Position numbers: made by a program. 44,686 nt of DNA from Vulcanimicrobiales bacterium (GTDB lineage: Bacteria; Vulcanimicrobiota; Vulcanimicrobiia; Vulcanimicrobiales; Vulcanimicrobiaceae), in contig JBBQQR010000018.1 in the NCBI GenBank assembly GCA_038215615.1, forward strand, positions 1 to 44,686, read 5' to 3'. Shown one piece after another: positions 35,301-38,300 of the stretch (position 1 is the stretch's first letter; every line of letters starts with the position of its first letter).

Positions 35301-38300
35301 CGACCACGTCGCGCCGCCGTCGTCGGAACGATAGACGCCGCCGGTCTTTACGGCGTTGGTGTCGACGAGCGCGTAGACGCGGTTGGAATTGGCCGGAGAA
35401 ACCGCTATGCCGACATGTCCCACTGAGGCCGGGAATCCGTTTCCTGAAATTTGCGTCCACGTGGCGCCGGCATCGGTGCTCTTGTAGAGTCCGCTGCCCG
35501 GGCCATTGCTCGGAGGATAGACGTTCCACGGTGGGCGGCGCGTCTGCCAGAGCGATGCAAATATGACGTTTGAATTCGACGGATCCATCGAAAGATCGAT
35601 CGCGCCGGTGTTTTCATCTTTGTAAAGGACCTTGCTCCACGTCTTGCCGCCGTCGGTCGACTTGAAGACGCCGCGCTCGGCGTTGGGACCGTACTGATGT
35701 CCCAGCGCAGCGACATACACGATGTTGGGATCTTTCGGATCGACGACGACCTTACCGATCTGCCGCGTGTCGGCCAAACCGATGTGAGACCAGGTTTTTC
35801 CGGCGTCGGTTGATTTGTACATGCCGTCGCCGTGCTGTATGTCGGAGCGCATGTCGGCTTCGCCCGAGCCGACGTAGATAACATTCGTGTCGCTGGGCGC
35901 GACCGCAATGGCGCCGATCGAGGCGACCGAAACGCCGTCGAAAATCGGGGACCACGTGCGCCCTGCGTTGTCGCTTTCCCAGACGCCGCCGCCGACCGAT
36001 CCGAAATAAAATTTCTCCGGCTGCCCCGGCACGCCGGTTACGGCTAGGGCGCGGCCTCCGCGGAAGGGTCCGATCAGTCGCCAGTGGAGCGCGCCGAGCG
36101 CGGAAGCGGGGTAGGTTTGGGCCGACGCGGGGCGCGCGATGAAAGCTTGCGGGCCAAGAAACGCGAGCGCGAGCGCGGCTGCATAAAATCGTCGCACGCG
36201 ATGTGCTTCACGCTGGTTCTAGGCGTGCCCTGTGGCGACCCGTTTCTTCCCCACGTTTGGCGGACGCTATTTTACGAAGACAAAGCCGATTAAGCCGCCG
36301 ACTACGCTCAGCGCGAAGACGAAGATAAAAATCCACACACCCAGCCGCAGTAGCGCTTGACCGCGCCGCCGCGAGGATTGCGTCGTATATCTGACTTTCG
36401 ATTTAGCGCTCACGAGCTGAGCGCTTGCCGTTCGGAGACCGGCGCCCAAAGCCGTTCGAGATTGTAGAATGCGCGCTGCTCAGGGGTGAAAACGTGCACG
36501 ATGATATCTCCAAGGTCGATCAAAATCCACGTGCCTTCAGAGTACCCTTCGAGACGGCCGACTCGCATACCAGCGGCTTTGATATTCTCGGTGATGCCGT
36601 CGGCAATCGCTCGCGTTTGCACCTTCGAACGTCCGGTAACGATGACGAACGTGTCGGCGATGATCGTTTTGCCCGCTACATCGATCTCCATGAATTGCTC
36701 GCCTTTTTTATCCGATGCGGCCGTCCGCACGATCTCAAGTATGTCCGCCAGTGGTGGCCTCCGTCATAGCGTGTGCGCCGAATGTTCGCATTGCCGCAGC
36801 CGTTTGCGGGGCGAGCGGCAAGTGCTTGCTGCTAAGATACCGCAAAGATGACTCGATCGTTGCGCGCATCGCTCCGGAGAGGTCGCGTTCGGCCAGTTCT
36901 GCTAGGGGCGCCCGCTCCGGATAGTCGCGGCCGGGTTCGAGCCCGTCCGCTAAGTACAGAACGCAATCCAGCACCGACATCTGACCGGCCGCGAGCGTGT
37001 GCTTGGCGATCGCCGAGAGCACTTCGGGATCGGTGACGCCGAACTGCGCTCGCGCGAGCTCGGCGCTCAGCGGGGCATGCAGCACGATCGGGTGGGCGCG
37101 TTCGAAATCGCCGATGGTCATGCCGCGCGCCGCGCACTCTTCGAGGAGCCGTTCTTCGGAATAAAGCCGCGCCAGGTCGTGCAGCATCCCGGCCTTCCGC
37201 GCCTTTCCCGGATCCGCTCCATGAATGCGCGCCAAATTTTCCGCCATGCGCGCGACCCGTACGCAGTGCGCGTACCGGTGCTCTTGTCCGATGTGCTTGC
37301 GAACGAGCCTGCAGAGCTCCGTAAACGTCACTCGGCCAGCGTGGAGCGCAACGTGCGTAGCCGGTTGACGTAGATCTCGCTCTTGAGATTGCCGGCCCAC
37401 ATGACAAGCGCGTTCTCGTTGTTGTCGCTGTAGTAGCCGCGCCGCGTGGAAACCGTTGTAAAGCCGTACTTGCGGTAGAGCGCTTGCGCGACTTCGTTGC
37501 TTTCGCGAACCTCGAGCGTCATCCAAGAAGCGCCGCGAGCGATGGCTTCGTCGAGCAGTTTGAACAGCATGACCTCACCGTAGCGCCGCCCGCGATGGCG
37601 CGGCTCGACGGCGATCGTTGTGATATGTGAGTCTTCGAGGATCACCCAGATTCCGCCGTACGCGACGATGTCGTCGCCAATCCGTCCGACATAATAGTGC
37701 GCGAGCTTGTTATCGTTTAACTCTTGATAGAATGCGTTGGCCGGCCAGGTGGTTGTGAAGGACTGTTGTTCGATTCGCACGACTTCGCGCACATCCGAGC
37801 CGGCCATCGGTGCGATCGATAGGCGCTCGCCGCCGGCGGCCACCGGACGCGGATCGAGTTTCATTTCTTGGGAATGCTTACAGCCGGGAGCTCGCCGTAA
37901 TCGGCGCGCACTTCATGCAGCGACTTTGCCGGTTGGCGCTGCGCCGCCAGCATAGCGATCGCGAGCGCGGCGGGTTGGATGGCTGATGGAAGAATCGTCA
38001 CATCAATTCCGCGTTCGCCAAGCGCGGCGCGCACGTCCTCCGCGCCGCTCCCGGCGAGAACAAGCGCCGCCGGCAGCTCGGGACTCAGCGCTTCGAACAC
38101 GTCGGAAATGTACCCGGACGCGCGGCGTTCCGAATCGTCCGTTCGCAAGCGAACGGAGACGACGCCTTCGCGTCCGCGAACGGCGGTAAGCAAGGGGCGG
38201 CCGCCCGCATCCAGCCCGCATTCGAGCGCGTCGAACGTCGAGACGCCACAGAGCGGTACGTTCCAGCCGAGCGCGAGCGCTTTTGCATAACTGATGGCGA

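What a model noticed while it worked through the whole genome (the two positions that open the first line are those of the whole stretch)
36410..36751. rsfS (ribosome silencing factor) starts at a non-canonical codon, CUG or AUC, across Vulcanimicrobiaceae
rsfS begins at CUG (C18:36751), 7 codons before the call. In the family two different non-canonical codons occupy this aligned start, which suggests selection for weak, IF3-sensitive initiation of the silencing factor.
Evidence so far: At the aligned position behind an SD: CTG in 12, ATC in 7, GTG in 1 of 20 family genomes; ATG in 5 of 5 genomes of the sister family. infC uses ATA/ATC in 6 of 6.
(Added by a program. Inside this text positions count along the whole contig: contig position 1 is position 1 of the stretch shown here. 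"Call 12" and the like, gene names such as g00115 and contig names such as C1 are that model's own, and its searches are not shown. The text may have been shortened before it was handed on; [...] marks where a part breaks off. The agent that wrote the report below was given it as the finding of a first reader that could run no searches.)

Follow-up and report, generated by a model that had tools for sequence, protein, structure and literature searches.

The report
rsfS starts at CTG or ATC
In this uncultured bacterial family the gene for the ribosome-silencing protein RsfS almost always begins at a rare, weak start codon (CTG or ATC) instead of ATG, which probably keeps the protein scarce and may tie its synthesis to the ribosome's start-codon proofreading.

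Summary
Confirmed from sequence; not shown experimentally. rsfS (36751-36410, minus strand) has GGAGG, six bases, then CTG, five codons after an in-frame stop. The called GTG has no Shine-Dalgarno (SD), and starting there would remove half of helix 1. In 148 family genomes (70 genera) the start column is CTG 96, ATC 39, ATT 1, TTG 3, GTG 3, ambiguous 6. Twenty-four have no ATG/GTG/TTG before the conserved core. The GTG column behaves like a silent valine site. CTG is basal, with two CTG/ATC switches. infC starts at ATA/ATC (28 of 28); 24 ribosomal-operon genes are canonical. New here: the yqeK stop lies inside the first 18 bases of rsfS in 127 of 147 genomes, so coupling is possible. The habit is not family-specific: 17 of 30 Chloroflexota (without yqeK) and 6 of 28 Actinomycetota show it, and 80 of 80 enterobacterial-type loci use TTG. 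The scan noted it before on other DNA (Dehalococcoidia, Omnitrophota, Thermoleophilia). Selection for a weak start is well supported; IF3-dependent regulation is plausible but untested. yqeK and a parA-type gene also sometimes start at CTG. Not found in eight paper searches.

The parts
36410..36751 (-). rsfS coding sequence, 113 codons from the proposed CTG start
   Evidence: PF02410, TIGR00090 over cut-off; aligns to solved RsfS chains from residue 3; model pLDDT 91, helix 2-14
36749..36751 (-). Proposed start codon CTG
   Evidence: SD energy -7.0; column is CTG/ATC/ATT in 136 of 148 family loci
36758..36762 (-). Shine-Dalgarno GGAGG, 6 bases before CTG
   Evidence: Complements the standard 16S 3' end seen in 5 of 5 family genomes; purine peak at -12 to -7 across the family
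36764..36766 (-). In-frame TGA five codons upstream; excludes any earlier start
36728..36730 (-). Called GTG, most likely Val8; lies 4 bases after the yqeK stop
   Evidence: SD energy -1.1; GTG in only 81 of 148 loci; 31 synonymous changes over 135 Val rows
36735..37331 (-). yqeK (Ap4A hydrolase family); its tail covers the rsfS SD and start, and its stop (36737-36735) lies 14 bases into rsfS
   Evidence: TIGR00488 over cut-off; overlap conserved in 127 of 147 loci
37328..37864 (-). rimI-type acetyltransferase; its stop overlaps the yqeK GTG (GTGA)
   Evidence: TIGR01575 over cut-off
37861..38900 (-). tsaE and tsaB, upstream overlapping genes of the same probable operon
   Evidence: TIGR00150 and TIGR03725 over cut-off; ORFs

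Best explanation
rsfS is translated from an SD-led near-cognate start codon (CUG here, AUC in one large subclade), read by initiator tRNA as fMet. This is shown by comparison, not by experiment. Selection keeps the codon weak because RsfS caps 50S subunits and blocks 70S formation, so its dose must stay low (inferred). A fair SD recruits the 30S and the poor codon limits commitment. In most of the family the yqeK frame runs over the SD and start and stops 1-14 bases past it, so terminating ribosomes can also feed rsfS by re-initiation (layout shown, coupling inferred). Near-cognate starts and re-initiation are both restrained by IF3 in E. coli, so RsfS output should rise when IF3 proofreading slackens. 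Whether that response is the reason for the codon is the open step. Odds: the start is CTG/ATC about 0.93; selected weakness about 0.85; IF3 response as the selected function about 0.4.
For: Start column invariant at the codon level while neighbouring Leu/Val/Ala columns vary. Protein conservation begins at this column: amino-acid entropy 3.3-3.9 bits upstream outside the SD codons, 1.0 at the column. SD at -3.4 or stronger in 90 of 96 CTG and 39 of 39 ATC loci; only 6 of 136 non-canonical loci have any ATG/GTG/TTG with even a weak SD. 24 of 148 loci have no canonical codon between the upstream stop and the DKK motif; the next lies at codon 21-151. Helix 1 spans residues 2-14 at pLDDT about 96. 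No clear SD-led ATG at this column in 142 resolved loci, although CTG to ATG is one substitution; two switches ended on another weak codon. Controls: 24 ribosomal-operon genes in 21 genomes show no conserved non-canonical start. The same habit appears without yqeK in Chloroflexota (17 of 30; no yqeK hit in 30 loci). E. coli K-12 and 80 of 80 close homologues use TTG.
Against: No N-terminal or ribosome-profiling data. About 11 of 148 loci read as canonical (TTG 3, GTG 3, and 5 of the 6 ambiguous rows, of which up to 3 may be ATG), so the weak codon can be lost. CTG starts are not unique to rsfS here: the yqeK start column is GTG 36, CTG 22, TTG 20, ATG 13, ATC 4, ATA 4 among 99 resolved of 147 rows, and a parA-type gene shows CTG in 9 and ATC in 1 of 28 family genomes. 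Most other bacteria sampled use canonical codons: all 63 Bacillota rows have one in range, and about 1 of 30 Pseudomonadota rows is a non-canonical candidate (read by eye). In H. pylori a 2-3 fold rise of rsfS mRNA raised stationary-phase survival rather than harming cells (10.64898/2026.03.28.715003, passages). All 10 genomes of this genus keep GTG at +7, 4 bases after the yqeK stop in most.
Confidence: 0.8

Rival explanations
1. IF3-coupled circuit as the selected function. The 50S anti-association factor reads the same signal as infC. When IF3 is short or 30S subunits are immature, CUG/AUC initiation leaks, RsfS rises with IF3, and 50S subunits are held back from joining poor 30S.
For: infC keeps ATA/ATC in 28 of 28, so IF3 discrimination probably still works in this family (inference). 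In E. coli, loss of LepA raises CUG and AUA initiation, loss of RbfA or KsgA raises near-cognate initiation, and added IF3 rescues mis-initiation at AGG (PMC6868393, passages). IF3 and RsfS are both raised in a rimM mutant (PMC13246957, passages). rsfS mostly avoids TTG/GTG, which would also be weak but are less IF3-sensitive (recalled): 6 of 142 resolved rows.
Against: No direct test. The E. coli co-induction happens with a UUG start and was not traced to the start codon. A fixed dose cap predicts the same sequences. Genes unrelated to translation (parA-type, yqeK) also use CTG here.
Confidence: 0.4
2. Coupling device. The weak codon suppresses de novo initiation so that rsfS is made only by ribosomes finishing yqeK.
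For: Where yqeK reads into rsfS in another frame, 127 of 128 loci stop within 18 bases in the yqeK frame, against 34 of 128 in the other frame. IF3 excess lowers re-initiation in E. coli (PMC2268962, abstract).
Against: About 17 family loci in which yqeK ends before the start mostly keep CTG/ATC. Chloroflexota use CTG with no yqeK and mostly no long overlapping frame. The early stop could simply prevent a long YqeK tail. The initiation region is no more folded than those of ribosomal-protein genes (mean unpaired 0.49 vs 0.50).
Confidence: 0.3
3. Lineage-wide tolerance. This family initiates at CTG/ATC fairly well, so the rsfS codon is a near-neutral frozen state.
For: CTG at yqeK and parA-type starts in some genomes.
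Against: Those genes swap freely with ATG/GTG/TTG (yqeK 31 changes in 99 rows) while rsfS does not (8 in 142). Ribosomal-operon genes are canonical. A rough genome scan found no excess of SD-led CTG (8 vs 6.1 expected) or ATC (7 vs 6.7), though its sensitivity was low.
Confidence: 0.1
4. The called GTG (Val8) is the real start in this genome, reached by re-initiation 4 bases after the yqeK stop.
For: Canonical codon; kept in 10 of 10 genomes of the genus; the Pfam match begins at residue 8.
Against: No SD (-1.1); absent in 67 of 148 family loci; removes half of helix 1; residues 1-7 are conserved as protein. A minor product from it is not excluded.
Confidence: 0.06

Closest known systems
infC (IF3) with AUU/AUA start, autoregulated through IF3 discrimination (PMC13009471 and PMC2830850, passages)
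   Same: Translation-factor gene with a conserved SD-led near-cognate start; the product keeps ribosomal subunits apart.
   Different: RsfS acts on the 50S and does not inspect start codons, so any loop would be cross-regulation. The codons are CUG/AUC, whereas infC in this family uses AUA. No regulation is shown.
Deinococcus rpsL (CTG) and dnaA (ATC), shown by proteomics (PMC2830850, passages)
   Same: The same two codons, conserved across a lineage and missed by gene callers.
   Different: Other genes; here one gene switches between the two codons; no peptide evidence here.
S. aureus ccpN (AUA) and cvfC1 (AUU) (PMC13009471, passages)
   Same: A strong SD props up a weak codon; about 10% of AUG output in reporters, medium-dependent for ccpN.
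   Different: Shown by Ribo-RET; not translation factors; the main text does not mention rsfS (0 hits).
E. coli rsfS with UUG (PMC10917681, passages)
   Same: Same gene, also a sub-optimal start, kept in 80 of 80 close homologues.
   Different: UUG is one of the three canonical starts; no yqeK overlap.

Membership tests
RsfS/Iojap (PF02410, TIGR00090) | Profile score above the curated cut-off | tested here: met
   109.3 vs 21.6 bits; 113.7 vs 56.9 bits
RsfS/Iojap (PF02410, TIGR00090) | Alpha/beta fold opening with helix 1; homology to solved RsfS | tested here: met
   Model pLDDT 91, helix 2-14; 13 solved sequences matched
RsfS/Iojap (PF02410, TIGR00090) | Binds uL14 and blocks subunit joining | not tested
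   Taken from PMC13246957 (passages); no complex prediction was run
Conserved non-canonical start genes (infC, pcnB, ccpN type) | Near-cognate codon at the N-terminal edge, conserved beyond silent-site expectation | tested here: met
   136 of 148; 8 changes vs 25-41 at four of five silent columns
Conserved non-canonical start genes (infC, pcnB, ccpN type) | SD at proper spacing, no better canonical start | tested here: met
Conserved non-canonical start genes (infC, pcnB, ccpN type) | Initiation at that codon shown in vivo | not testable with these tools
   Needs Ribo-RET or N-terminal proteomics
IF3-regulated genes (infC type) | Output falls when IF3 rises and depends on the start codon | not testable with these tools
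   Only indirect: infC keeps ATA/ATC in 28 of 28
Translationally coupled gene pairs | Upstream stop within a few bases of the downstream start | tested here: met
   127 of 147 family loci; not seen in most Chloroflexota
Translationally coupled gene pairs | Downstream output depends on upstream translation | not testable with these tools
   Needs a reporter

The most novel reading that the evidence does not exclude
rsfS is a second widespread bacterial gene, after infC, whose start codon works as a sensor. Several phyla have settled on CUG, AUC, AUA or AUU so that synthesis of the 50S anti-association factor is gated by IF3 proofreading. Immature 30S subunits or IF3 shortage would then induce the factor that holds 50S subunits back: a two-subunit quality-control loop written into one codon.
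Probability: 0.35. Interest if true: 0.8.

Novelty: new member of a known kind. Interest (0 to 1): 0.55.

Why it matters
How RsfS levels are set, and whether RsfS is a hibernation or a biogenesis factor, is still debated (review title in the references of PMC13246957). A conserved weak start gives a one-codon handle on that question: swap it to ATG and vary IF3. It also means gene callers truncate or miss rsfS in most of this family, and suggests that rsfS belongs with infC on the short list of genes to check for non-canonical starts.

Tried and rejected
Sequencing error: rejected, since the pattern holds in 136 of 148 genomes. Conserved Leu/Ile inside a longer protein: rejected, because there are no synonymous Leu codons at the column apart from 3 TTG, conservation collapses upstream, and stops lie 2-10 codons upstream in many genomes. 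Constraint from the overlapping yqeK frame: rejected by inference, as the YqeK tail is not conserved and ATG would not by itself create a stop in either overlap frame. Occluding hairpin: no support. yqeK-rsfS fusion as the norm: only 2 loci are in frame without a stop. Genome-wide scan for other such starts: low sensitivity (it placed SD-led canonical starts in only 160 of 1570 ORFs), no enrichment, but it recovered rsfS and infC. RNA runs: no RNA holder listed. Exact protein look-up: 0 of 3 found, so public start calls could not be read. This genome's 16S lacks its 3' end; five relatives were used instead. The promoter scan gave nothing useful. One search used wrong coordinates and one search's automatic tally was one codon off; both were discarded (the tally was redone). 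Papers: searches listed nothing on a non-canonical rsfS start. I saw listings only, apart from passages of PMC13009471, PMC10917681, PMC13246957, PMC2830850, PMC6868393, PMC9723500, PMC3400551 and 10.64898/2026.03.28.715003, and the abstract of PMC2268962. PMC5397182 was not held. No supplements were read; start-site tables of profiling studies could already list rsfS.

Full report
The locus. On the minus strand the window carries tsaE, tsaB, rimI, yqeK and rsfS, each overlapping the next. The rsfS frame opens after a TGA at 36766-36764, so a start must lie among the few codons before the conserved DKK motif. The candidates are CTG 36751, ATA 36742, ATC 36733 and GTG 36730. Only CTG has a proper SD: GGAGG six bases upstream, -7.0 against -1.1 for GTG, scored on the standard 16S tail found in 5 of 5 relatives. 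The model of the 113-residue form has helix 1 at residues 2-14 with pLDDT about 96, and solved RsfS chains align from residue 3. A GTG start would drop residues 1-7.

The family. 332 of 348 family genomes have the gene. I read 150 loci, picked for genus coverage and score, and dropped two unpublished ones. In 148 loci from 70 genera the start column is CTG 96, ATC 39, ATT 1, TTG 3, GTG 3 and ambiguous 6, with 13 rows shifted by hand for indels. Of the six ambiguous rows, G155 keeps an SD-led CTG ten codons upstream, G294 reads GTG, G160 TTG or GTG, G019 probably ATG, and G153 and G199 ATG or TTG. Protein conservation starts at this column, an SD peak sits at -12 to -7, and Leu-type codons there are CTG in 96 of 99 against 308 of 1253 in the gene body. 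Twenty-four loci have no canonical codon before the DKK motif; their next one is at codon 21 to 151. The +7 column is GTG 81, GTC 30, GTT 19, GTA 11, ATC 5, other 2, and changes 31 times on the tree like a silent Val site.

History. A tree of 15 operon proteins from 21 genomes and a RsfS+YqeK tree of 155 rows (start column left out) place CTG at the base and need two CTG/ATC changes. One founds a clade of 39 ATC/ATT rows that also holds one CTG genome; the other separates G179 (CTG) from G182 (ATC) in one genus. Two events are suggestive, not statistics. The stronger point is that 142 resolved rows hold no SD-led ATG although it is one substitution away.

Controls. infC starts at ATA in 27 and ATC in 1 of 28 family genomes, and at ATT in 2 of 2 from the next family. 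Twenty-four genes of the ribosomal operon in 21 genomes show ATG/GTG/TTG starts and no conserved non-canonical column; some rows of 8 genes were not resolved by my patterns. Against uniqueness: the yqeK start column shows CTG in 22 of 99 resolved rows, 15 of them in a CTGA context (that this TGA is the upstream stop was not checked), and a parA-type gene shows CTG in 9 and ATC in 1 of 28 genomes. Both swap freely with canonical codons (yqeK 31 changes in 99 rows, rsfS 8 in 142). So CTG is usable in this family, but only rsfS and infC among the genes examined are locked to non-canonical codons.

The overlap. yqeK stops within the first 18 bases of rsfS in 127 of 147 loci, mostly 5, 10 or 14 bases in. 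Where it reads into rsfS out of frame, 127 of 128 stop that early in the yqeK frame, against 34 of 128 in the other frame. This suits termination-reinitiation, which IF3 also restrains in E. coli (PMC2268962, abstract). It is not required: loci where yqeK ends earlier mostly keep the codon, and Chloroflexota use it without yqeK.

Beyond the family. The nearest outgroup genome has an SD-led ATG, and six genomes of the next family have long extensions with ATG far upstream in five. Among 28 loci from other classes of the phylum, 4 look non-canonical (ATA, ATT, CTG twice). Chloroflexota: CTG 15, ATA 1, ATC 1 of 30. Actinomycetota: CTG 4, ATA 1, ATC 1 of 28, two unpublished genomes dropped. Bacillota: a canonical codon is in range in 63 of 63. 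Pseudomonadota: about 1 candidate in 30. E. coli K-12 and 80 of 80 close homologues use TTG. These outside calls rest on SD score and position in single sequences and are weaker than the family result. Earlier scan notes report the same in Dehalococcoidia, Omnitrophota and Thermoleophilia; I checked only the Chloroflexota claim, in part.

Mechanism. Shown by comparison: an SD-led CTG/ATC start under purifying selection. Inferred: weak initiation caps the dose of a protein that blocks subunit joining; similar starts give about 10% of AUG output in S. aureus (PMC13009471, passages). More speculative: the codon makes RsfS respond to IF3 proofreading. In E. coli, 30S assembly mutants initiate more at CUG and AUA (PMC6868393, passages), and IF3 and RsfS both rise without RimM (PMC13246957, passages), which fits a loop in which poor 30S subunits induce the 50S cap. 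Sequence cannot tell this from a fixed cap.

Verdict. A real feature and a new member of a known kind (infC, pcnB, Deinococcus rpsL and dnaA, S. aureus ccpN). It was not found in print in the eight searches, with supplements unread. It earns moderate interest from its depth, its recurrence across phyla and a cheap decisive test. No reported count rests on unpublished genomes, except that the 332 of 348 tally includes 15 of them.

Noticed in passing
L479:555-1331 minus strand (G000:C5, start at 121630): A parA/soj-type gene appears to start at CTG behind AAGGAG in this genome. Across 28 family genomes the start column is a mix of CTG (9), ATC (1), TTG, GTG and ATG.
   Followed up: partly
L480 (G000:C10, start at 8454, minus strand): A 477-codon frame with an SD-led CTG and no canonical codon nearby; not identified or compared with relatives.
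   Followed up: no
window 37329-37331 and family loci: The yqeK start column reads CTG in 22 of 99 resolved loci, 15 in a CTGA context like the usual ATGA/GTGA overlap.
   Followed up: partly
L144 (G123) and L114 (G162): yqeK and rsfS are in one frame with no stop between them, while the SD and ATC/CTG remain: a fusion or an assembly indel.
   Followed up: no
L152-L157 (family f3): RsfS carries a mostly basic 43-65 residue N-terminal extension with a conserved R-x-G-I-A-S/T motif.
   Followed up: no
   Followed up: no
window 36268-36413, minus strand: A short frame from a GTG overlapping the rsfS stop (GTGA) runs about 47 codons to a TAG and ends in a hydrophobic stretch; possibly a small membrane protein gene (read).
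   Followed up: no
L149 (G155): The SD-led CTG is kept but ten extra codons lie between it and the usual N-terminus, which contains an ATG without SD.
   Followed up: no
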